In this document: piece by piece, positions 1,964 to 55,728 of the stretch
Layout of the letters: the number at the start of each line of letters is the position of its first letter
Numbering within the stretch: position 1 is the first letter of the stretch
Source: a virus
Lineage: Duplodnaviria > Heunggongvirae > Uroviricota > Caudoviricetes
IMG/VR virus record: IMGVR_UViG_3300042296_001032
Strand: one strand, 5' to 3'
DNA: 64,000 nucleotides
Position numbers and translations under genes: made by a program
The notes under the pieces: model-generated
Told to the model about the DNA's origin: nothing
The model's input: only the letters and a program-made list of their open reading frames with translations
Databases searched by the model: none

Positions 1964-3131
1964 CAGATAAACCTAATGACTTAGCGTATCTTGGTAATCT
2001 ACATGCCCAATAACCAGCTGAACACTTATCATTCTTTTGTGGACATCTATGTCTATCAGAAAAGGCTTTTCTAGCTTTAGGGTCTTTTAATTTAACAGCC
2101 AATTTACCACCACCAGATTTGGCACCAAAAGAAACTTTTTTAACTTTATCACCACATTTAGTGTAAACATAGAATTTTTTTGAACCACCCCTTTTAGGTT
2201 TACCCAAAGAAACTTTTTTACCTTGGTATTCGGCCTCGTTAATAATTTCTATCTCTTCCTCACCTTCGTAAATTACGTCCAACCAAATAACTTTATTTTC
2301 GTAAATACCTCTCCTACCAATATCTGTATGTACTAACTCTTCATCTAAAGTAGAAAGGTCTATAATACCTTTGTTATATAAACTTCTAACCTCATTAATA
2401 AGTTTAAAATAACCTTCTGAACCATATCTATAAATATTTTCAGTTAGTGTTGGTCTATTTTCAAAGTGATAAAGTACGTTTTCTGAGATAAGTTCTTTTC
2501 CCTCTGTTATTAATTTTCCGTTAATGATATAATCTTCTTTCATAGTTTTAGTTTTTTTACCCCATGATTTGCCTTTACTAGATTTATATTTTTTACATGA
2601 ACCTGGTGTAGGTCTACAAGCCGGGTATTTACTTCTTTCTTCCCCTTCTTTTCTACCGCATGGTTTACATTTAGTCCTACCAGTTTCACTATCTTTTCTA
2701 CAGGTATTACAATCTACCCAACCACCACTTTTTCTTTTAAACCAATCTCTTAAATTAGTTTCTGAACTAGGTTTTGCTGTAAGTTTTCTTTTTTCGGTGA
2801 TTAAGTTTTCTAAATCAAAAACACTTTCATTTTTTTTACGTCCTTGACAATGTGCCTTTTGTGAAAAACCTTTTGGGTTATTGCAGTCTATGGATTTTTT
2901 ATACTTTTCAGACCACTTTTCTTCTAGTTGTTCATCTTCTTCTTTAGTTGAGTTACCCCAATTAGCAGCACCAACCTTTCTACATTTAGATAAAGCACCT
3001 GAAGCATAAGCAGAAGGCCACACATCGTATCTACTTTTTACTTTGTAGTAACAAGCGTCTCTTTTCTTTTTCTTTTTTCTTCTTTTTCTTTCGAAAAGAA
3101 GTTCAACATTTATGACCTCTCTAACGTCCAT
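1944..3131 (-). CDS. Highly basic Lys/Cys-rich protein (KRRKKKKKR; many CxxC/K-rich tracts), possible DNA-binding or virion-internal protein
   Basis: 395 aa ORF with extreme K/R/C composition at both ends and an acidic YGSEGYF-like central region. Confidence 0.55.
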   Translation of the reverse strand: MDVREVINVELLFERKRRKKKKKRDACYYKVKSRYDVWPSAYASGALSKCRKVGAANWGNSTKEEDEQLEEKWSEKYKKSIDCNNPKGFSQKAHCQGRKKNESVFDLENLITEKRKLTAKPSSETNLRDWFKRKSGGWVDCNTCRKDSETGRTKCKPCGRKEGEERSKYPACRPTPGSCKKYKSSKGKSWGKKTKTMKEDYIINGKLITEGKELISENVLYHFENRPTLTENIYRYGSEGYFKLINEVRSLYNKGIIDLSTLDEELVHTDIGRRGIYENKVIWLDVIYEGEEEIEIINEAEYQGKKVSLGKPKRGGSKKFYVYTKCGDKVKKVSFGAKSGGGKLAVKLKDPKARKAFSDRHRCPQKNDKCSAGYWACRLPRYAKSLGLSGGGTWW

Positions 3132-3138
3132 AAAAAAA

Positions 3139-3798
3139 TTATTTTCTCCAATCTGATGTACCAGTTGGGTAAATGTCGTTCATGTCATTATCCTCATCAT
3201 AAGGTAATCCACCCTCACCCATTTCAACCGATTTCCACATGTCACCACTATTGGTTTCATTCATTAAGAAATCAAACACTTGGTCCATATTGTTTTTAGC
3301 TTCAGCGATATGGTCTTGAGCCCAATCGTGACCTCCTTCTAGTATATCCTCAATTTGGTCCTCGTCTAAATCTAAAAGTAATCCAGCTTGTCTTCTAATT
3401 TGTTCTAGGTTAGAAAAAAACATATAACGAGAAGACTCATGTTCTTCACCTTCATTAATTTTTTCACCACAACATTTATTTATTTTAGACATAATTTTTC
3501 CGTATTGATTAAAGTCAAATTCGTCCCCAAATTTATCACCTACTTTTTTAACAGTAATTACATCTTTTCTAAACATAACTTGAGCTACATGTTTACCGTC
3601 ACAATAAATTTTAAAGTCGTTTCCATCCTTTTTTGCTTCACAATTAGACTTTAATCCTTTTTTAATTTTATCACGGAATGCATCCATTTTAACATCAAGG
3701 TCTTTTGTTGTAACAGCTTTTTGTAACTTACCTTCTTTGATTATTTTTTGAACTAATCTTTCTATATCTGATTCAGTTAATTTAATCACTTTTTTCAT
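3139..3798 (-). CDS. Hypothetical protein with acidic C-terminus; N-terminus MKKVIKLTESDIERL is weakly leader-like
   Basis: 219 aa ORF. Confidence 0.5.
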   Translation of the reverse strand: MKKVIKLTESDIERLVQKIIKEGKLQKAVTTKDLDVKMDAFRDKIKKGLKSNCEAKKDGNDFKIYCDGKHVAQVMFRKDVITVKKVGDKFGDEFDFNQYGKIMSKINKCCGEKINEGEEHESSRYMFFSNLEQIRRQAGLLLDLDEDQIEDILEGGHDWAQDHIAEAKNNMDQVFDFLMNETNSGDMWKSVEMGEGGLPYDEDNDMNDIYPTGTSDWRK

Positions 3799-3820
3799 AT
3801 CTTTATTTTTAATATAAATA

Positions 3821-4030
3821 TTACTCAGGTCTTTTAAATTTAACTACAACCCATATTAAATAGAAAAAAGAAACAATTACATTTAAATAAGGTATGTAAA
3901 AAAATTTATTTAAATCTAAATAAGTCTCATCTGAAATGTTATGGTCTAAAACCATTCCTTTTTTAAGAAATACGTGTGTAAGTGGGAAGGTAACCAATAC
4001 GGATAATACCCAATATATTATTTCAATCAT
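3821..4030 (-). CDS. Small membrane protein (two hydrophobic helices)
   Basis: 69 aa ORF, hydrophobic. Confidence 0.4.
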   Translation of the reverse strand: MIEIIYWVLSVLVTFPLTHVFLKKGMVLDHNISDETYLDLNKFFYIPYLNVIVSFFYLIWVVVKFKRPE

Positions 4031-15525: not shown

Positions 15526-15908
15526 TGGTGGAGGTGGAGGGTTTCGAACCCTCGTCCTGCGTTACATTACTAACGTCTTCTACATGCTTATTCCATTTTA
15601 ATCTAAATGGACAAAATATTTGATTTATTATTTACCATTGTAAATCAACAAACAATGGGTATCATTCGATTTTGGGTTCAATGATAATCCACCACAACTA
15701 CGACTTCTGTTGCTAGGTTATATGTCTGCCGACCCCGTAGTAACACCTAATATGATTAGGCAGCTACTGTTGCACCTTCAGTCACAAAGTGACCTACAGT
15801 TGCGTTTGCGAATACGTCGCCGTTTGAAGTTTCAATACGTGTATTAACGTGATAGTATTATTTCACGACATGCTTACCCATTACCAATCGTTAACCAGTC
15901 AAATCCAA
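15526..15908 (-). ncRNA. ssrA: tmRNA (ssrA-like)
   Basis: Minus-strand 5' end GGGGGTGTTTTTGGATTTGACTGG matches the canonical GGGGCUGAUUCUGGAUUCGACGGG. 3' end ...TAAGCATGTAGAAGACG...GGACGAGGGTTCGAAACCCTCCACCTCCACCA matches canonical UAAGCAUGUAG...GGUUCGA..CCACCA. Internal candidate tag frame ends ...EGATVAA then TAA. Confidence 0.7.
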
Positions 15909-15969
15909 AAACACCCCCAATAATTCAAAGAACTCTTACAAATATAAGAATAAATATTAAATAATCAAA

Positions 15970-24001: not shown

Positions 24002-24110
24002 TACACAAAGAAGGATTCGAACCTCCAAAACCTACTTTTATCGACCCGAAGGTAGATTATTTTCGGTCAGAGTTGTTACACCCCGTGTTTACCAATTTCA
24101 CCACTTGTGT
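24002..24110 (-). tRNA. Atypical, long (109 nt) tRNA-like gene (acceptor ACACAAG/TTTGTGT, normal D- and T-arms, 36 nt extra internal hairpin)
   Basis: Perfect 7 bp acceptor and canonical D-arm (GTGAAATTGGTAAACAC) and T-arm (GGAGGTTCGAATCCTTC). No standard anticodon arm closes. The extra piece could be an intron, or the gene may be a pseudogene. Confidence 0.35.
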
Positions 24111-26126: not shown

Positions 26127-26628
26127 TTTTAAATCCTAAATATTGTTTCCAATCATTACTAATTCTATTTATTTTTTCAACAAAATATAAATAAGAAGGT
26201 CTGAAAGGTTTATGTCTCATGGTTAAATTATACTCTGATAAAAACTCATCAACATCCTTACTACACTTTCTAACATTACAAATACCACAACAAGTAACCA
26301 AATTTTCCCAAGTATTAGAACCACCTTTAGACCTAGGGATAACATGGTCAATGGTTAAATCAGTTGTAGCACCACAATAAATACATTCATTATCATCTCT
26401 TTTAAAAATATTCTGTCTAGATAGATGAACTTTCTTAAAAGGCAAAACAATATACTTCAGTAACCGAATTACCGTTGGTCTAATATAATCTTTTTTATCT
26501 GTCACAATTGGGTTTTCTGACTCGTGAGTCACGACTTCAGCCTTACCTTTAAACACTAATTTAAAACCCTTTTGTAGTGTGGTAATGTTTATTGGGCTGT
26601 AGTCCATGTTTAATACTAACACTTTCAT
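26119..26628 (-). CDS. HNH endonuclease
   Basis: CIYCG...DHVIPRSKGGSNTWENLVTCCGICN is a canonical HNH motif. Confidence 0.65.
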   Translation of the reverse strand: MKVLVLNMDYSPINITTLQKGFKLVFKGKAEVVTHESENPIVTDKKDYIRPTVIRLLKYIVLPFKKVHLSRQNIFKRDDNECIYCGATTDLTIDHVIPRSKGGSNTWENLVTCCGICNVRKCSKDVDEFLSEYNLTMRHKPFRPSYLYFVEKINRISNDWKQYLGFKNG

Positions 26629-26646
26629 AAGGCCTTTTATTTATAA

Positions 26647-27435
26647 CTATTTATTTTTCCATTCTTTCCAAGTATCAAAATCTTTTAACTTCTCCATCTC
26701 TTCTTCCATCCATTTAGCTCCTGATATAAACATATCTTTCCAATAACCTGCATCTGATGGTCGATGGTAAGGGTATTTCCTATCTAATACTTTAGTTGCC
26801 GCTTCTTCTAGTGTTTCTTGTTTTAAAGCATTTTCTTTTGCTTCCTTTAGAATTTGAATAGATTCTTTTTCTTCACAGTTATCACATACACCACAAGTAC
26901 ATTCTTGTTTAGGTTCTTCTTGTGGAATGACAGCACTTCTTCTAATGAAATGTGAATCAGGTAAAGTGTCTAAATGCTTTTCTAAATTCGTTTTAGGTTC
27001 TTCTTGTGGAACGATGATTTTATGTAGTTTTTCTATATATTGAGTTGATTTTTTATCAGATGGATGACTAATTTCAATAAATGACTTTATTTTATAGTCA
27101 ATATCAACACTCTCACAACTTGGATTCTTAACAAACCATTCTAAGAACTCATCATCAATAGCTTGAACACCGTTATCTATTAAAAATTGGTCTGTTGTTA
27201 GGATTATTTTACCAAAATTTTCTCCTTTAGGATAATTAATTATTGCTTTTTCAATTAATTCTCTTACAGAATAAAACCAATCTCCTTCTTTAATTTCTTC
27301 GTTAGAAGTGATGTAGATGTTTAATTTTGTTCCACTATACTCTTTACGTGGCGTTTGAATTAAAAGTAATCCTGTATGTTTTTGAACAATGGAATGTTGT
27401 TCCTTATCCGTTGGTATTAAATGTATGTTTTTCAT
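26647..27435 (-). CDS. Hypothetical protein with a C-terminal Cys cluster
   Basis: 262 aa ORF. Confidence 0.5.
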   Translation of the reverse strand: MKNIHLIPTDKEQHSIVQKHTGLLLIQTPRKEYSGTKLNIYITSNEEIKEGDWFYSVRELIEKAIINYPKGENFGKIILTTDQFLIDNGVQAIDDEFLEWFVKNPSCESVDIDYKIKSFIEISHPSDKKSTQYIEKLHKIIVPQEEPKTNLEKHLDTLPDSHFIRRSAVIPQEEPKQECTCGVCDNCEEKESIQILKEAKENALKQETLEEAATKVLDRKYPYHRPSDAGYWKDMFISGAKWMEEEMEKLKDFDTWKEWKNK

Positions 27436-28279: not shown

Positions 28280-28360
28280 TAGTCAGGACAGGATTTGAAC
28301 CTACGAGAGTCTTTTCGCCCCACGGGTCTCATTTAGGCGTCACCATTTCGCCACCTGACT
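28280..28360 (-). tRNA. Atypical tRNA-like gene (acceptor AGTCAGG/CCTGACT, D-arm GGCGAAATGGTGACGCC, T-arm GTAGGTTCAAATCCTGT); anticodon arm not resolved
   Basis: Perfect acceptor, D and T arms, but the 31 nt between the D and T arms do not form a canonical anticodon arm. Confidence 0.3.
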
Positions 28361-28631: not shown

Positions 28632-28737
28632 TAGTCAGGACAGGACTTGAACCTGTATGTGTAACTTTCTTGGCCCTTCCCCAATGGCACACTATCCACT
28701 CGTTAATTTAGCGTCTAACCAATTCCGCCACCTGACT
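28632..28737 (-). tRNA. Atypical tRNA-like gene with about 30 nt extra sequence (acceptor AGTCAGG/CCTGACT, D-arm GCGGAATTGGTTAGACGC, T-arm CAGGTTCAAGTCCTG)
   Basis: Shares its acceptor with the 28280-28360 locus. 106 nt is too long for a standard tRNA. Possibly intron-containing. Confidence 0.3.
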
Positions 28738-51605: not shown

Positions 51606-52400
51606 CTAAGATTTCTTTAACTTTTTATGTGCATTAACATTGTTTTGATTATATTCAACAACACTTAAATTCATTTCAGGTTTACTCGTTAATAAAACAT
51701 AATCACCTTTACCTTTTTGTTCTTTCCATAACAGGTCAACTTCTTTTGGGTATATTTTGTTCCATACTACCGTAGATTCTCTTCTTAAAAGTTCTTTTGA
51801 TTTTTTATTCAGGGGGTATATATATCTAAATTGTTTTCCTCTAATTCTACGAATACCTTTTATTTTTATAAAATCAGGGGTCATCCAAAATAATTTTTCT
51901 TTACCCGAAAATTCAGCATTTTCTTTCAATAAAGCTTTTGAACTTCTTGGGTGTATTTTCTCCCCTAAAGGTGATATGTAGATATCGGTCCAAATAAAAT
52001 TACCATAATAAAAATTAGACCCTTGGTACACATACCCAACTTTACCCACAATTCCATCTGCCCATGTATAAAGAAATTTCTTTTCAGGTAAATTAGTTTT
52101 CATCCATCTAACTACTTGAGCTAACATCTGTGACTCTGAATTTCTAGGCATAGAATCATCCATACACATCTTACCAATTTCGTAATAATCCTCTGATTTT
52201 AAGTTCGGGAATAACTTTTTAATTGTTTGTAAGGGTTGTGTCCCCCACCCCAATGTAACAACACCAACTAACTCATTGTTTAAAAAACAACCTAACCAAT
52301 GTTTGGTTAATTTAGGCATTACTTTTGAATAGTGTCTTTCTTGTACAAATTCTATAGCAAGAGTTTTATCTATCTCTTTAATTTCAAAAAAATATTTCAT
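51606..52400 (-). CDS. Mom-like (phage Mu DNA-modification, GNAT-fold-like) family protein, paralog 1
   Basis: FVQERHYSKVMPK...GVVTLGWGTQP resembles the Mom xHHYLxRxP ... GVxTF..PP signature. Tandem with a paralog. Confidence 0.4.
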   Translation of the reverse strand: MKYFFEIKEIDKTLAIEFVQERHYSKVMPKLTKHWLGCFLNNELVGVVTLGWGTQPLQTIKKLFPNLKSEDYYEIGKMCMDDSMPRNSESQMLAQVVRWMKTNLPEKKFLYTWADGIVGKVGYVYQGSNFYYGNFIWTDIYISPLGEKIHPRSSKALLKENAEFSGKEKLFWMTPDFIKIKGIRRIRGKQFRYIYPLNKKSKELLRRESTVVWNKIYPKEVDLLWKEQKGKGDYVLLTSKPEMNLSVVEYNQNNVNAHKKLKKS

Positions 52401-52401
52401 T

Positions 52402-53133
52402 TTAAAAAGCTAATTCAGTTATTTCATCACATTTGGGGCAAGAATACCATTTTTTAAATCTATTGTCGTAAATTTGTTTTTTACCGGCACAACAATCATA
52501 TTCATTTGTATCACCTTTTTGTGGTCTCATTTCTTCAATATATAAGCACTTTAAAGATTTATCAATAATATAAGCATATCTATGTTTCCTTGTTCTAGGA
52601 ATCCAAACACCTTGGACTTCTTTTGTTGAACCTCTAGGGTTAACCTTACCATCCCATCTAAAAAAATCTGATTTCTTATCTGTTAAGCCGTAATAGGTGA
52701 AGTTACAGACCTGATATATACTACCGCTATGTCTACTATCATCCGCTAATGTTATAACTGCCTTAACACCTTCTTTTTTTAGTAATCTAATACTACCACC
52801 TAATAGGTATGAAGTTAGGTTTGTACCATTTAATTCAGGTAAAACACAAAGTCTACTAAGTTCTAAAACCGTTTGGTTATCATTGGATAAACCAAACCAA
52901 CCCTTTAAAGCTACATTACCTTGTGGATTAGAGAAAGTAGCAACACCAATGATATCTTCAGTCTCCCTATCAATTACAGCATAAGAAAATTTAGCAAAAA
53001 ATTTAGCTTCACCCAAGTAGTGATAAGTTTTAACAAAATCGTAAGCCTCTTTTTTGGTAACTTCTTTTAAATAGAAAATATCTTTAGCCTTAAGCTCTCG
53101 GTTGATAAACTTCTGAACTGTTTGTTTGTTCAT
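52402..53133 (-). CDS. Mom-like DNA-modification family protein, paralog 2, with a C-terminal zinc ribbon
   Basis: FVKTYHYLGEAKF...GVATFSNPQG...ELSRLCVLPE (compare Mom ELSRLVLHPEA). C-terminus CCAGKK...CPKCDE. Confidence 0.45.
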   Translation of the reverse strand: MNKQTVQKFINRELKAKDIFYLKEVTKKEAYDFVKTYHYLGEAKFFAKFSYAVIDRETEDIIGVATFSNPQGNVALKGWFGLSNDNQTVLELSRLCVLPELNGTNLTSYLLGGSIRLLKKEGVKAVITLADDSRHSGSIYQVCNFTYYGLTDKKSDFFRWDGKVNPRGSTKEVQGVWIPRTRKHRYAYIIDKSLKCLYIEEMRPQKGDTNEYDCCAGKKQIYDNRFKKWYSCPKCDEITELAF

Positions 53134-53314
53134 ATAAATTATTATTAATTAAAACCTTTTTTTCTTTTTCAAAAGCAATTTCATAAATTTGGCGGAGTTC
53201 CACGTATTTATAATCGCCACTACCAACCATTTTAGATACTGTGTCGTACATTTTATTTTGAATACCCAATTCAAAAGCCTCAAAAAATATCTCTTCTATT
53301 CTAGTCATTTCCAA
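53090..53314 (-). CDS. Hypothetical small protein
   Basis: 74 aa ORF overlapping the start of the Mom-like gene. Confidence 0.35.
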   Translation of the reverse strand: MEMTRIEEIFFEAFELGIQNKMYDTVSKMVGSGDYKYVELRQIYEIAFEKEKKVLINNNLYEQTNSSEVYQPRA

Positions 53315-53376
53315 TAATTTAATATTAAATAAATATAATAAAACCGTTAATTATTAAGTATAGTAAAATAAAAAAA

Positions 53377-53393
53377 GGGAGACAAGCTCCCTT
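53377..53393 (-). terminator. Terminator GGGAGACAAGCTCCC with A7/T-run; ends the Ro60-like transcription unit on the minus strand
   Basis: Hairpin flanked by A7 on the plus strand, which reads as T7 on the minus strand. Confidence 0.45.
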
Positions 53394-53898
53394 TAAAAAA
53401 TTAGGTGTCGGAATGGTGGTCCTTTTGTTATTTTCGGTGGCTGAGTAACCACCCCAATATTATTAACCCATTTTGGTTCGGGTGTCTTTTATTTGATTGA
53501 GACAAATCCAACTACCATTTTTACTTGTGATAATCAAGAGGTATGTTTTACGACCTCAAGTGTGAGATTTTCCCACGTTTAAACTCTCCTATGGTCGCCA
53601 ATTTATAATTTAATTTGGGGTAAATCGGTAAAACCCCTCGTCGTTCTTACAAGTTTCTAGAAGAATTTGCAGAAACCATTCGTTTATTGGGTCTTATAGT
53701 CTCGTTTGACGTACCCATTACACCTTTTTAATAATTTTGTGGTAACAGAATCGTTTGACTCTTTTGTCTAACTCTGAGTGGTCCCCGGCTTTCACCTTTA
53801 CACCCTTGTGGTTAGACGGGTTATCAAAGCCCTCTCTTATGTAGCTATAAATTTAAGATTTTAATTTTGCTGCAATTATTCCTCAATACCACAATATT

Positions 53899-55341
53899 TT
53901 AAAGAATCCAAACCTTTACAGGTTCATATCTTTCTGAATGTACGGTTTCATTCATAATATTAACAGGTGTTAAACTGTTAGGATTATTCAGAACCGATTT
54001 CAAGATTGATGGACTGAAACCACTAATTAAAGCAGTTCCAACCTCATCAAATCTTGCTGGGAAATTACCCCCGTTGGAATGTAGGTTCCAGAAAATAATT
54101 CCAGGTTTTACATAACCAGCGTTAGTGTACATTTCATCAATCATCGACATAGCCGAGGGATTCCAATCAGATTCATTTCCCCAACCACTACTAGTAGCGG
54201 AATCAAACTCCATATCGGATAGGATAAGAATCTTTGTTGGCATCTCTTCCTGTGGAACACCAAATTTAACTGCTTGATTCAAGATAGTCTTGAACGCTGC
54301 TTCTAAATTAGTTGACATACCCCATTTAGCTCTAGCTAATTGATTGTAACGGTCACTAAGTGGACCCATCAATTTTTGAATTTCGGGATTTGAAGAAAAT
54401 GTCATAAACATATCTTTAAATGCTCCCTCATTTCTTTCAGAGATGTACATACCCAAAGAAATAGCCACCTCCATACATGTAAGGTTTGGATTACCTCCTA
54501 CCGAACAATCCATTGAACCTGAAACGTCAACCAAAGGTAGGACAAGTTCTGTTGAACCTTCCATATAATTTGGTAGGGCTTTCCATTGTTCATTAGCCAA
54601 ATCTTTATTACCGAATCTAAGATTCTTGGTAACATCGTAAGGATACAAAGCTCCGGCGTTAACTTTAGTTTCACCTTTTTGAAGGGCTTCAATAAATTGA
54701 CCAAATCTTTCTTGGTCGTTTCTGCCAAAAGCTTTTGTATACCTTGACATAGCCAAAGATGGTGTCTTTGAATACTCAATCTCTGCCCAACTTTTCGAAC
54801 ACATTTTTTGTTCTACCGTGTTTGACAAAGACACAAGTAATTTTCTAAGGGATTTTGGGTCCAACTTAAGTGCTTTACGTACTTTATTAAATACCAAACC
54901 TTTACGGGGCATCCATTTAGCACATAAACCATTACCACTTTTTAAACCTTCTACAAGAAGTGTGATGGCGTCATTTTCCAATTCAGTTCCGAAAAGGATA
55001 TGAACGTCATCCCATCTCCCGTATTCAGGAATTAAGTTAAGATTAACTTTAACTACTTTTGAGTAGTTATCAACTAGGTAAGATAAAATATCTCTAAAGA
55101 TTTTTCTCTCACCAGCACCACCTCTAACATCTCTTGCCCAAAAAAGGATTCTTAATGCTGTAGTTGGTTCTTCACTGAAAGCCTTTGAGAAAAGTTTTAC
55201 AACACTCTCAGAACTTTTACCTCTCATTGCTCCAATGGAGAAGAAAAGGTTAACACACTCATTAAGAGAAGATGAATTAGTTTCCATCCCGTTCTTAGTG
55301 GTTGTGTTTTCAGTTTGTAATGCTTCAGTTAATCTTGACAT
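53899..55341 (-). CDS. Ro60/TROVE-like protein with a C-terminal vWA (MIDAS) domain
   Basis: LVDVSGSMD...GMSTNLEAAF...ILILSDMEFDS parallels the Ro60 vWA (VDVSASM...GGTDCS...IVFTDNETF). N-terminal region shows TROVE-like blocks (AKWMPRKGLVFNKVRKALKLDP compare Ro60 [21 protein letters not shown]). Confidence 0.55.
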   Translation of the reverse strand: MSRLTEALQTENTTTKNGMETNSSSLNECVNLFFSIGAMRGKSSESVVKLFSKAFSEEPTTALRILFWARDVRGGAGERKIFRDILSYLVDNYSKVVKVNLNLIPEYGRWDDVHILFGTELENDAITLLVEGLKSGNGLCAKWMPRKGLVFNKVRKALKLDPKSLRKLLVSLSNTVEQKMCSKSWAEIEYSKTPSLAMSRYTKAFGRNDQERFGQFIEALQKGETKVNAGALYPYDVTKNLRFGNKDLANEQWKALPNYMEGSTELVLPLVDVSGSMDCSVGGNPNLTCMEVAISLGMYISERNEGAFKDMFMTFSSNPEIQKLMGPLSDRYNQLARAKWGMSTNLEAAFKTILNQAVKFGVPQEEMPTKILILSDMEFDSATSSGWGNESDWNPSAMSMIDEMYTNAGYVKPGIIFWNLHSNGGNFPARFDEVGTALISGFSPSILKSVLNNPNSLTPVNIMNETVHSERYEPVKVWIL

Positions 55342-55389
55342 AATTTCTATTTTTTTAATTAGGTTTCTTTAAAACAGTTATAAATTATA

Positions 55390-55728
55390 CTATTTATTTT
55401 CTGATTTGTCAATAGGTTTTTTTGTATATTTTCTAATTAATTTAAAAATCTCCGTAATGTCTGTAAACTCGGATGGTGGACTATCCATTCTACTAGGAAG
55501 AAACATCACAGTAAACCCGTGATTAGCATAAAATGTTTCAGTAACTCTAACACCATTGATTTTACCAAGATAAACCCAAGGAAAATTTCCTGATAGTTTT
55601 ACATCAATTCCTATTTTTTTAAGTCGTTCAACAAACACTCCGAGTTTATCTGTACTTATTTTTGTACTAGTTTCTGTTTCCATTTCTATATATGTTCCAA
55701 ATTTAGTTTTTACTTCCATAACATTCAA
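55390..55728 (-). CDS. Hypothetical protein
   Basis: 112 aa ORF. Confidence 0.45.
   Translation of the reverse strand: MNVMEVKTKFGTYIEMETETSTKISTDKLGVFVERLKKIGIDVKLSGNFPWVYLGKINGVRVTETFYANHGFTVMFLPSRMDSPPSEFTDITEIFKLIRKYTKKPIDKSENK

What the first reader, a model, noticed from the sequence alone, without database searches (positions are those of the whole stretch)
53320..55341. Ro60/TROVE-like vWA protein followed on the same strand by a 500 nt structured, ORF-free region ending in a terminator: candidate Ro/Y-RNA-like RNP module
The 480-aa protein shows the Ro60 vWA pattern (DVSGSM ... G-x-T/S-N/D ... ILILSDMEF) and TROVE-like N-terminal blocks. Downstream on the same strand, before the terminator at 53377-53393, lie about 500 nt without ORFs. 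They contain long-range complementary segments (GTCTAAC...GTTAGAC; GGCTTT...AAAGCC; GGTGGCTGAGTAACCACC; GGGGTAAATCGGTAAAACCCC). In bacteria, and in some mycobacteriophages, Ro60 orthologues are encoded next to Y-RNA genes that carry tRNA-like domains and act in RNA quality control with exoribonucleases. A phage with more than 30 tRNAs and a tmRNA carrying an RNA-surveillance RNP would be coherent, and it would be new for this lineage.
Basis: partly seen in the sequence, partly recalled or inferred. Interest (0 to 1): 0.75.

Follow-up and report, generated by a model that had tools for sequence, protein, structure and literature searches.

The report
Phage Ro60-like protein with partner RNA
A phage gene for a distant structural relative of the RNA-surveillance protein Ro60 is followed by a conserved, intricately folded 500-base non-coding RNA, and that RNA carries a short stem-plus-CAGCAA signature found beside this gene family in very many unrelated phages, so it probably marks an undescribed class of Y-RNA-like partner RNAs.

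Summary

The 505-nt ORF-free stretch downstream is a real structured RNA. It stays ORF-free in 13 relatives and is as conserved as the coding sequence or more so. In a 93-pair model with a pseudoknot, 94.7% of cells pair (36-50% in slid controls) and 23 pairs show compensatory changes.

It matches no Rfam family (no Y_RNA, YrlA, ROOL or GOLLD hit) and has no tRNA-like domain. It is built from two modules. Each is closed by a stem followed by (U)NCAGCAA/CUGCAA.

A covariance model of the minimal 60-nt form of this module hits only next to DUF2828 genes:
- 57 of 57 hits in viral contigs are on the gene strand.
- 39 of 39 hits in 80 independent genome loci are on the gene strand.
- It also hits in Felixounavirus, Listeria, Staphylococcus, Bacillus and Aeromonas phages and in mycobacteriophages; a regex/stem scan alone finds it in Campylobacter and Sinorhizobium phages.

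In mycobacteriophage Lumos one module encloses a sub-threshold YrlA match.

Best reading: a Ro60-like/Y-RNA-like RNP with a new RNA class. Binding and function are inferred, not shown.

The parts
55384..55412 (-). Sigma-70-type promoter-like site, TTGACA-17 nt-TATAAT (12 of 12 matches), 43 nt upstream of the ATG. It is the probable start of a gene-plus-RNA transcription unit.
   Evidence: Consensus scan. Function is inferred.
53899..55341 (-). Gene for a 480-aa DUF2828 + DUF7788 protein: an N-terminal alpha-helical domain plus a vWA domain with a complete MIDAS (D272, S274, S276, T344, D376). It is a remote structural homologue of Ro60.
53365..53894 (-). Whole non-coding RNA (about 530 nt): two stem-closed modules followed by an intrinsic terminator.
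   Evidence: ORF-free here and in relatives. 72-90% nt identity to relatives, at least as high as the CDS in 6 of 8. 93-pair structure with 94.7% pairing and 23 covarying pairs.
53737..53894 (-). Module 1 (158 nt). Outer helix UUGUGGUA/UACCACAA and inner helix GGAAU/AUUCU close an insert with three stacked helices and a GNRA (GAAA) hairpin at 53787-53796.
   Evidence: RNAalifold and pair counts, helices 1-6. The homologous module in the L013 clade covaries: AAAUUGGUUU/AAACCAAUUU and GGAAUG/CAUUCU.
53867..53874 (-). Module 1 signature UGCAGCAA, 3 nt (AAU) after the inner stem; CAGCAA itself starts 5 nt after the stem. Invariant in all 14 aligned relatives.
   Evidence: Alignments A1 and A2. Family consensus from A5.
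53404..53724 (-). Module 2 (321 nt). Outer helix GGUGU/ACACC and inner helix GAAUGGU/ACCAUUC close an insert of at least seven hairpins plus an H-type pseudoknot.
   Evidence: Helices 7-19. GGUGU/ACACC changes to GAUAU/AUAUC in L011 and L012. The closing sequences are nearly identical to the 48-nt minimal module of L029, ACGAAUGGGUUCAGCAA...CCAUUCCGAACC.
53667..53673 (-). Module 2 signature UCUGCAA, the CUGCAA variant of CAGCAA.
   Evidence: Alignment A2. The same variant occurs in the first module of L013, L022 and L029.
53598..53637 (-). Pseudoknot: stem GGGGU/ACCCC (53633-53637 with 53617-53621) interleaved with stem CCGAUUU/AAAUUGG (53622-53628 with 53598-53604).
   Evidence: Both stems show two-sided changes, helices 12 and 13.
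53365..53394 (-). Intrinsic terminator: 8-bp stem AAAGGGAG/CUCCCUUU followed by a U run.
   Evidence: Terminator scan. A hairpin plus T run sits at the same place in all relatives.

Best explanation
The locus is one unit: promoter, gene for a Ro60-like protein, a roughly 530-nt structured non-coding RNA, then a terminator.

The protein (DUF2828/DUF7788) is a remote structural homologue of Ro60, with a helical domain plus a MIDAS-bearing vWA domain.

The RNA consists of two modules. Each is closed by a short stem that is followed on its 5' side by (U)NCAGCAA/CUGCAA and, after the 3' strand, by an unpaired G (module 2 has one extra C, giving CG). The variable interior holds an elaborate fold.

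I infer that the stem-plus-CAGCAA element is the docking site for the Ro60-like protein, as the conserved stem of Y RNAs is for Ro60. I infer that the variable insert is the working part, acting as a tether, gate or decoy towards host RNA-handling enzymes or defence nucleases. The insert is ornate here, YrlA/tRNA-like in mycobacteriophage Lumos, and nearly absent in the 60-nt minimal modules. With two modules, the window RNA could carry two protein copies.

Shown: the protein fold class, the existence and structure of the RNA, and the family-wide genomic coupling of module and gene. Inferred: physical binding, co-transcription and the downstream function.
For: Protein:
- Pfam and PHROG assignments.
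- The MIDAS residues are invariant.

RNA:
- Conserved and ORF-free in relatives.
- More conserved than the CDS in 6 of 8 relatives.
- 94.7% of cells paired against 36-50% in slid controls; 23 compensatory pairs against 1-8; 0 of 500 shuffles reach the observed values.

Module:
- A regex/stem scan gives 109 hits per 92.9 kb just downstream of the gene, against 22 per 439 kb elsewhere on the same strand.
- CM R1 finds 57 of 57 hits on the gene strand, 10-450 nt after the gene, in 404 kb of viral loci.
- It finds 39 of 39 hits on the gene strand in 431 kb of independent genome/MAG loci.
- In the annotated phage loci, R1 hits flank the gene in Listeria, Staphylococcus, Bacillus, Enterococcus and Aeromonas phages and in mycobacteriophages. 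In Campylobacter and Sinorhizobium phages only the regex/stem scan finds modules.
- In the whole wV8 genome the only strong hits lie within 1 kb after gp047.
- All 7 stem pairs covary. CAGCAA and the 3' G are in 38-39 of 39 hits.

Link to Y RNA:
- In Lumos the module GGACCCC-CACAGCAA...GGGGUCC encloses the Rfam YrlA match (39.3 bits, below the gathering score of 69).

Literature:
- Bas63 gp130 is Ro60-like and is needed against the Ppl defence (PMC11482910).
- Listeria phage CKA15_055 is Rsr-like by HHpred and lies within 2 kb downstream of highly transcribed unannotated regions that the authors propose to be Y RNAs (PMC12282133).
Against: - There is no sequence-level TROVE hit. A profile search against PDB gives only E 0.19 to phiLo Ro60.
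- CM R1 does not detect the window's own modules, because their inserts are 110-255 nt.
- Both window modules depart from the consensus: a 5-nt spacer in module 1; CUGCAA and an extra C before the 3' G in module 2.
- The KVP40-like phage CZ01 and a Yersinia jumbo phage have the gene but no module within the 2.5-4 kb of flanking sequence examined.
- There are no expression or binding data for this phage.
- The AF2 model is of moderate confidence (pLDDT 77.9, pTM 0.71) and rests on a shallow alignment (at least 60% identity).
- In some phages the modules lie upstream of the gene, which also fits a cis-regulatory leader.
Confidence: 0.6

Rival explanations
1. The modules are cis-acting parts of the DUF2828 mRNA (a 3' or 5' UTR). 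The protein, or a host factor, binds them to autoregulate translation or stability, or they are RNase processing signals. On this reading they are not a free-standing partner RNA.
For: The modules start about 7-30 nt after the stop codon here and in many relatives. In Listeria, Campylobacter, Bacillus and Aeromonas phages and in many MAG loci they lie directly upstream of the gene, like a leader. No clear separate promoter was found for the window RNA.
Against: In wV8 the modules sit between tRNA genes, 330-980 nt after the gene. In Sinorhizobium phiN3 they lie 1.3-2.6 kb upstream, in separate intergenic regions. In Listeria LP-048 a TTGACA-17-TATCAT site precedes the three-module array. The window RNA's large, covarying and pseudoknotted inserts are excessive for an operator. 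In Lumos one module encloses a YrlA-like match, which fits a trans-acting RNA.
Confidence: 0.15
2. The 500-nt RNA is an independent ornate phage RNA, in the manner of ROOL or GOLLD near tRNA genes. Its function would be unrelated to the neighbouring protein, and the adjacency would be synteny only.
For: It is large, multi-helix and pseudoknotted, with a GNRA loop. It lies in a tRNA-rich phage. Listeria P100-like phages carry other large ORF-free stretches nearby that lack the CAGCAA motif, one of which is highly transcribed in CKA15.
Against: There is no Rfam hit to ROOL, GOLLD, HEARO, OLE or any other family at E<=10. Its two closing stems carry the same signature that tracks DUF2828 genes in unrelated phages on the gene strand. 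Module 2's closing sequences are nearly identical to a 48-nt minimal module in a related clade.
Confidence: 0.15
3. The RNAs act alone as decoys or sponges, for example for host tRNA-targeting nucleases or RNA-binding proteins, and DUF2828 has a separate role.
For: The modules are interspersed with tRNA genes or fused to tRNA-like domains in wV8, Ci1 and Lumos. The minimal modules have A-rich loops with repeated GCAA.
Against: The window's own tRNA clusters contain no modules, and the rest of the wV8 tRNA region has none. The coupling is therefore to the DUF2828 gene and not to tRNA genes.
Confidence: 0.07
4. The stretch is not a functional RNA: it is a decayed gene, or DNA-level repeats or regulatory DNA.
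For: The single-sequence folding z-score is only -2.24.
Against: There is no conserved ORF in any relative. Many two-sided compensatory substitutions are present. The elements are strictly strand-specific. Nucleotide conservation exceeds that of the CDS.
Confidence: 0.03

Closest known systems
Bacterial and phage Ro60 (Rsr, TROVE + vWA) with YrlA/Yrn Y RNAs, including Thermus phage phiLo Ro60 with Yrl1/Yrl2 (PMC4201824; PMC12135203)
   Same: - The protein has a helical domain plus a MIDAS vWA domain, and Ro60 proteins are the only full-length structural matches.
- The RNA gene lies beside the protein gene on the same strand.
- The RNA has a conserved closing stem with a short purine-rich motif on the 5' side and a variable effector domain.
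- In mycobacteriophage Lumos the module encloses a YrlA-like match with T-arm- and D-arm-like sequences.
   Different: - No TROVE Pfam hit; the helical domain is about 260 aa.
- The RNA motif is stem + N3 + CAGCAA + 3' G, not GNCGAA(N)G or GGUCCGA.
- The window RNA has no tRNA-like domain.
- It is about 4-5 times longer than the 114-position Rfam YrlA model and contains two modules.
- No Rfam Y_RNA or YrlA score.
DUF2828 'RNA-binding' / 'Ro-like' proteins of cultured phages: Felixounavirus gp47/Bas63 gp130, Listeria P100/CKA15_055, mycobacteriophage 'Ro-like RNA binding protein', KVP40.0300
   Same: The same protein family, 32-53% identical over 96-99% of the length. The genes usually lie next to tRNA genes. 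The same RNA module is present in most of them.
   Different: The window protein belongs to an uncultured clade, and no phage record matches the window at DNA level beyond tRNA-sized stretches. Its RNA modules carry far larger structured inserts than the 50-130-nt modules of these phages.
Large ornate phage-associated RNAs (ROOL, GOLLD)
   Same: Size of several hundred nt, many helices, a pseudoknot and a GNRA loop, and a phage context rich in tRNA genes.
   Different: No Rfam match. Unlike those RNAs, this one has a clear, family-wide protein-gene partner and a modular repeat architecture.

Membership tests
Ro60 / TROVE protein family | TROVE (PF05731) or vWA_Ro60 (PF25045) sequence match | tested here: not met
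   No TROVE hit at E<=1; vWA_Ro60 E 0.21, 11.9 bits against a cut-off of 27.7. Profile against PDB: E 0.19 to phiLo Ro60, at the MIDAS stretch only.
Ro60 / TROVE protein family | Overall fold: alpha-helical repeat domain joined to a vWA domain | tested here: met
Ro60 / TROVE protein family | MIDAS motif in the vWA domain (DxSxS...T...D) | tested here: met
   D272, S274, S276, T344 and D376 are all invariant in 45 homologues.
Ro60 / TROVE protein family | Binds Y RNA or misfolded RNA | not testable with these tools
   Needs EMSA, RIP or a solved complex.
Y RNA / YrlA (Rfam RF00019, RF02553) | Covariance-model match | tested here: not met
   No Y_RNA or YrlA hit in 53300-53950 at E<=10 with lax filters. 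For comparison, Lumos gives YrlA 39.3 bits, itself below the gathering score of 69.
Y RNA / YrlA (Rfam RF00019, RF02553) | tRNA-like domain (T and D arms) | tested here: not met
   ARAGORN and the Rfam tRNA model find nothing in 53365-53894.
Y RNA / YrlA (Rfam RF00019, RF02553) | Ro-binding motif GNCGAA(N)G / CGAA at the closing stem | tested here: inconclusive
   AAACGAAUGG lies at the 5' junction of module 2, but the C is A in L007-L010, L023, L025 and L033, so CGAA is not conserved. The conserved motif is CAGCAA/CUGCAA.
Y RNA / YrlA (Rfam RF00019, RF02553) | Encoded within a few kb of the Ro gene on the same strand | tested here: met
   The RNA starts 5 nt after the stop codon on the same strand.
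DUF2828-associated 'stem + CAGCAA' module RNAs (defined here) | Stem of 5-10 bp with a near-invariant G:C second pair, CAGCAA about 3 nt after the 5' strand, and an unpaired G after the 3' strand | tested here: inconclusive
   Module 1 has GGAAU/AUUCU + AAUUG + CAGCAA and a 3' G. Module 2 has GAAUGGU/ACCAUUC + U + UCUGCAA and a 3' CG. Both fit apart from spacer and one-base variants that are also seen in the L013, L022 and L078 modules. CM R1 does not score them because of the long inserts.
DUF2828-associated 'stem + CAGCAA' module RNAs (defined here) | Adjacent to a DUF2828 gene on its strand | tested here: met
ROOL / GOLLD / HEARO / OLE large RNAs | Rfam covariance-model match | tested here: not met
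   No hit at gathering threshold in the window, nor at E<=10 in the region.

The most novel reading that the evidence does not exclude
The stem + CAGCAA + 3'-G module defines a large family of phage non-coding RNAs that is absent from Rfam 15 and that I did not find described in the literature I could search. On this reading these RNAs are the cognate ligands of DUF2828 Ro60-like proteins in tailed phages of Firmicutes, Actinobacteria, Proteobacteria and Campylobacterota and in uncultured lineages, and are functional equivalents of Y RNAs. Their inserts range from almost nothing, through YrlA/tRNA-like domains, to the ornate 110-255-nt folds of this window. Such RNPs would reprogramme or evade host RNA decay or defence, as hinted by Bas63 gp130 against Ppl.
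Probability: 0.45. Interest if true: 0.8.

Novelty: new variant of a known kind. Interest (0 to 1): 0.72.

Why it matters
Ro60/Y-RNA particles are a classic RNA-surveillance system, but their phage versions are barely studied, and the much commoner DUF2828 'RNA-binding protein' has no known ligand. That protein occurs in 711 of the 50,697 phage records searched and in more than 7,900 protein clusters.

A short, easily recognised RNA signature sitting beside the gene gives an immediately testable ligand. It can be tested in tractable phages, including genera used in therapy and biocontrol: Felixounavirus, P100-like Listeria phages, staphylococcal and enterococcal phages, and mycobacteriophages.

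It would also explain unannotated gaps in tRNA regions, and perhaps one of the abundant orphan transcripts reported in such phages. Finally, it provides a natural series of 'scaffold plus variable cargo' RNAs for studying how Ro-like rings are directed to targets, or how phages counter RNA-directed defences.

Tried and rejected
- **Rfam.** Searched at the gathering threshold on the whole window and at E<=10 on the region. Only junk hits appeared (ar9, STnc290 at the terminator).
- **Sequence-only nhmmer profile of the RNA.** It finds only the close clade, in which the proteins are at least 73% identical.
- **CM R1 on the window.** It misses the long-insert modules. Its best hit, 2719-2794 (E 0.007), lies inside a 395-aa ORF. 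The regex hits at about 54063 and 32084 also lie inside ORFs. All were rejected as chance.
- **tRNA-like reading of the window RNA.** Rejected: no ARAGORN or Rfam support.
Rejected in favour of two local hairpins.
- **Alternative pairing GAGGU/ACCUC.** Rejected, because L002 and L010 break it while CGACC/GGUCG covaries.
- **Literature.** Searches for DUF2828, TTACAGCAA / 'CAGCAA motif', and Ro60 + phage + anti-defence found no description of the RNA motif. Burroughs & Aravind 2016, which I recalled from memory, and the Chen 2014 supplements were not available.
- **Long-insert tRNA-like Rfam hits at 24002-24110 and 28632-28737.** Neither carries a CAGCAA motif.
- **Most highly transcribed CKA15 region.** It maps to L096 at about 2488-2979 and contains no CAGCAA. 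Published expression data therefore do not yet cover the module array directly.
Full report
**Observation**

The ORF at 53899..55341 (-) encodes 480 aa containing DVSGSM, WGMSTNL and ILILSDMEF. Downstream on the same strand, 53394-53898 has no ORF of 30 aa or more; the only ORF there is 31 aa on the opposite strand. An 8-bp G+C-containing hairpin with a T run lies at 53394-53374. A perfect TTGACA-17-TATAAT site at 55412-55384 precedes the gene.

The window carries a tmRNA and 24-26 tRNA genes, all on the minus strand. On its own the region folds only slightly better than shuffles (z = -2.24), so everything below rests on comparison with related sequences.

**The protein**

- Pfam gives DUF7788 (1.1e-45) and DUF2828 (6.5e-35), with no TROVE hit and vWA_Ro60 at E 0.21.
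- PHROGs places it in phrog_850, 'RNA-binding protein' (4.5e-149). NCBIfam has nothing.
- tblastn finds homologues in 711 phage records, at 32-53% identity for nearly all listed and over nearly the full length. They include Felixounavirus, KVP40-like phages, Campylobacter, Listeria, Staphylococcus, Enterococcus and Bacillus phages, and mycobacteriophages where it is annotated 'Ro-like RNA binding protein'.
- More than 7,900 clusters match in the large protein collection.
- A 45-sequence alignment shows an invariant MIDAS (D272, S274, S276, T344, D376) and many invariant basic residues in the N-terminal half.
- A profile search of PDB sequences gives only E 0.19 to the Thermus phage phiLo Ro60.
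- The AlphaFold2 model (pLDDT 77.9, pTM 0.71) matches Ro60 proteins, and only those, over its full length. Foldseek's top five hits are phiLo Ro60, Xenopus Ro and human Ro60 (E 6.7e-8 to 1.3e-4, TM 0.41-0.60).

I conclude that the protein is a remote structural homologue of Ro60 and not a sequence-level TROVE family member.

**The RNA is real**

- IMG/VR holds relatives whose proteins are 73-84% identical. In all of them the stretch after the gene aligns with the window's at 72-90% identity.
- It contains no conserved ORF in any relative.
- In 6 of 8 relatives it is more conserved at nucleotide level than the coding sequence itself: 90.4 vs 83.8%, 88.1 vs 78.2%, 86.7 vs 77.5% and so on.
- Alignments show obvious compensatory changes. 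RNAalifold predicts 80 pairs, 23 of them with two-sided changes.
- I curated a 93-pair model in 19 helices, including an H-type pseudoknot. On it 94.7% of cells pair, against 36-50% when partners are slid by 1-3 columns.
- 23 pairs and 58 cells carry two-sided changes, against 1-8 pairs in the slid controls. None of 500 shuffles reaches the observed values for pairing, compensatory pairs or cells, or covariation score.
- The RNA runs from about 53894 to the terminator at 53365.
- Rfam 15 has no family for it. There is no Y_RNA, YrlA, ROOL, GOLLD, intron, tRNA or tmRNA hit at E<=10.

**Architecture**

The RNA is two modules.

- Module 1 (53737-53894) is closed by UUGUGGUA/UACCACAA and GGAAU/AUUCU, followed by AAU-UGCAGCAA. 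Its insert has three stacked helices capped by a GAAA loop.
- Module 2 (53404-53724) is closed by GGUGU/ACACC and GAAUGGU/ACCAUUC, followed by U-UCUGCAA. GGUGU/ACACC becomes GAUAU/AUAUC in two relatives. Its insert has at least seven hairpins and the pseudoknot.

**The module is general**

More distant DUF2828 loci (55-66% protein identity) also have ORF-free stretches after the gene, often before a tRNA array. Reading them showed the same closing design with different stem sequences: GGAAUGA/UCAUUCC, GGAUAG/CUAUCC, UUGGUUCC/GGAACCAG, UAGGUUUC/GAAACCUG, AGUAUG/CAUACU. Inserts go down to about 35 nt, so a minimal module is a hairpin of about 58 nt, usually in tandem.

- A stem-plus-motif scan gives 109 hits in 92.9 kb just downstream of the gene. 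Elsewhere on the same strand it gives 22 in 439 kb, and on the opposite strand 52 in 532 kb.
- The window's module 2 closing sequences are nearly identical to the 48-nt module of L029, ACGAAUGGGUUCAGCAA...CCAUUCCGAACC.
- I built covariance model R1 from 25 minimal modules.
- In 60 viral loci (404 kb, both strands) all 57 hits at E<=0.01 lie on the gene strand, 10-450 nt after the gene. Many of these loci contributed sequences to the model.
- In 13 annotated phage loci all 21 hits are on the gene strand and most flank the gene. They fall in Listeria LP-048, Staphylococcus 6ec, Bacillus MrDarsey, Enterococcus Ben, Aeromonas APT65, and mycobacteriophages Lumos and DirkDirk. Of these, only wV8 and Lumos contributed to the model.
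- Campylobacter NCTC12673 and Sinorhizobium phiN3 gave no R1 hit; their modules rest on the stem scan alone.
- In the complete 88.5-kb wV8 genome the only strong hits are three modules at 26151-26796, just after gp047. There are none in the rest of its tRNA region.
- In 80 fully independent loci from bacterial and archaeal genome bins (33-60% protein identity), 39 of 39 hits at E<=0.1 are on the gene strand. Most lie within about 350 nt upstream of the gene or just after it.
- Over 39 aligned hits all seven stem pairs covary: 98.2% paired against 28-52% slid, on an alignment fitted to the model.
- CAGCAA is present in 38-39 of 39 hits, the G after the 3' strand in 39 of 39, and the second stem pair is G:C in 37 of 39.
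- R1 does not find the window's own modules, because their inserts are long. Their membership rests on the shared design and on sequence continuity with the L013 and L029 clades.

**Link to Y RNAs**

- In mycobacteriophage Lumos the 380-nt gap after the 'Ro-like' gene holds three modules. The middle one, GGACCCC-CACAGCAA...GGGGUCC-AG, encloses the Rfam YrlA match with its T-arm- and D-arm-like sequences (39.3 bits, below the gathering score of 69; E 2.4e-7 on the region).
- Canonical YrlA has a closing stem carrying GNCGAA(N)G followed by a tRNA-like domain, and lies near TROVE-type Ro60 genes (PMC4201824). Thermus phage phiLo Ro60 binds two CGAA-bearing Yrl RNAs (PMC12135203).
- The DUF2828 module therefore occupies the position of the Ro-binding stem but with a different motif.
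- In Citrobacter phage Ci1, the closest cultured relative of the window protein (52.6% identity), a tRNA-like gene downstream of the DUF2828 gene carries an insert containing CUACAGCAA.
- Two papers had proposed, without defining any RNA element, that this protein family works with Y-like RNAs. Bas63 gp130 is 'structurally Ro60-like', is needed against the Ppl defence and sits upstream of tRNAs (PMC11482910).
- In Listeria phage CKA15, CKA15_055 is Rsr-like by HHpred and is detected in virions. It lies within 2 kb downstream of three very highly transcribed unannotated regions (PMC12282133).
- In LP-048 a TTGACA-17-TATCAT site precedes a three-module array at about 3647-3990, directly upstream of the gene.
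- The one CKA15 region whose coordinates are given maps further upstream and lacks the motif. Published expression evidence is therefore suggestive, not direct.

**Mechanism (inferred)**

The stem plus single-stranded CAGCAA plus 3' G is the constant part, and the interior is free to vary. That is the pattern expected of a protein-docking site that presents a variable cargo, as in Y RNAs.

I propose that the Ro60-like protein binds each module. The window RNA would then carry two copies, and its ornate inserts would recruit or block host RNA-handling factors. The target and the biological outcome (quality control, hijacking of exonucleases, or counter-defence) are not determined.

**Rivals**

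- A cis-regulatory UTR or operator role. This is plausible where the modules precede the gene. It fits less well with modules lying between tRNA genes or kilobases away, and with elaborate inserts.
- An independent ornate RNA. The shared, gene-linked signature argues against this.
- A protein-independent decoy.
- Non-functional DNA, which covariation and strand specificity exclude.

**Novelty and limits**

The general kind, a Ro60-like protein with an adjacent partner RNA, is known. The idea has also been floated for this protein family.

What appears new:
- the defined RNA signature;
- its breadth;
- its relation to YrlA in mycobacteriophages;
- the two-module, 500-nt ornate form in this window.

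None of these is in Rfam 15 or in the literature I could search. Not all relevant papers were accessible.

Limits:
- There are no expression or binding data for this phage.
- The protein model is of moderate confidence and built on a shallow alignment.
- Some DUF2828 phages (KVP40-like, Eneladusvirus) show no module within the 2.5-4 kb of flanking sequence examined.

Noticed in passing
window 15526-15918 (-); tRNA clusters at 23.5-30 kb, 36-37.1 kb and 45.6-47.3 kb (-): A tmRNA (Rfam 99.3 bits; tag peptide ANATVGHFVTEGATVAA) and 24 (ARAGORN) to 26 (Rfam) tRNA genes, all on the minus strand. None of the clusters contains a CAGCAA module.
   Followed up: partly
window 24002-24110, 28280-28360, 28632-28737 (-): Three tRNA-like Rfam hits (34-35 bits) that ARAGORN does not call. 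Two of them are 106-109 nt with long inserts between the D and T arms. They may be intron-bearing or aberrant tRNAs. The two read through (24002-24110, 28632-28737) have no CAGCAA motif.
   Followed up: partly
window 51606-52400 and 52402-53133 (-): Two tandem paralogues of Mom-like DNA-modification proteins (phrog_1384, E 1.8e-40 and 1.3e-31), downstream of the RNA's terminator beyond a 74-aa ORF.
   Followed up: no
L002, L005, L007-L010 and L012, between the stop codon and the RNA (e.g. L005 2832-2882): A conserved insert of about 50 nt (GAACCUAUAGGUGAUGAAAGAUACUCGGUAUCUAGAUUGUUAAAGUUC, with a GAUAC/GUAUC hairpin). The window, L001 and L003 lack it, and the protein C-terminus differs accordingly.
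   Followed up: no
L099 (Citrobacter phage Ci1) 5855-6200: After a TTGACA-17-TATAAT promoter come three tRNA-like genes. The first has normal acceptor, D and T arms but an insert of about 60 nt at the anticodon-arm position that carries CUACAGCAA. The others, one annotated tRNA-Pseudo, carry UUCAGCAU and CUACUGCAU.
   Followed up: partly
L096 (Listeria phage LP-048) 2003-3000: Two further promoter-preceded ORF-free stretches (about 2030-2340 and 2450-3000), with a GAAA-capped hairpin but no CAGCAA motif. The second corresponds to the most highly transcribed unannotated region of phage CKA15 (26,236-26,727). It is probably another large phage ncRNA of unknown class.
   Followed up: partly
L096 6852-8063; L105 8828-9458; L094 3987-4505: RNA-repair or RNA-processing genes lie near DUF2828 genes in other phages: an RtcB-like ligase (Listeria), a tRNA nucleotidyltransferase (Yersinia jumbo phage) and a YkuK/RNase H-like protein directly after the gene (KVP40-like CZ01). 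No such gene was identified among the eight flanking ORFs scanned in the window.
   Followed up: no
L050 5119-5327: A group I intron match (Rfam 51.5 bits, at the gathering score of 50) about 700 nt downstream of the DUF2828 gene, in a 465-kb viral contig.
   Followed up: no
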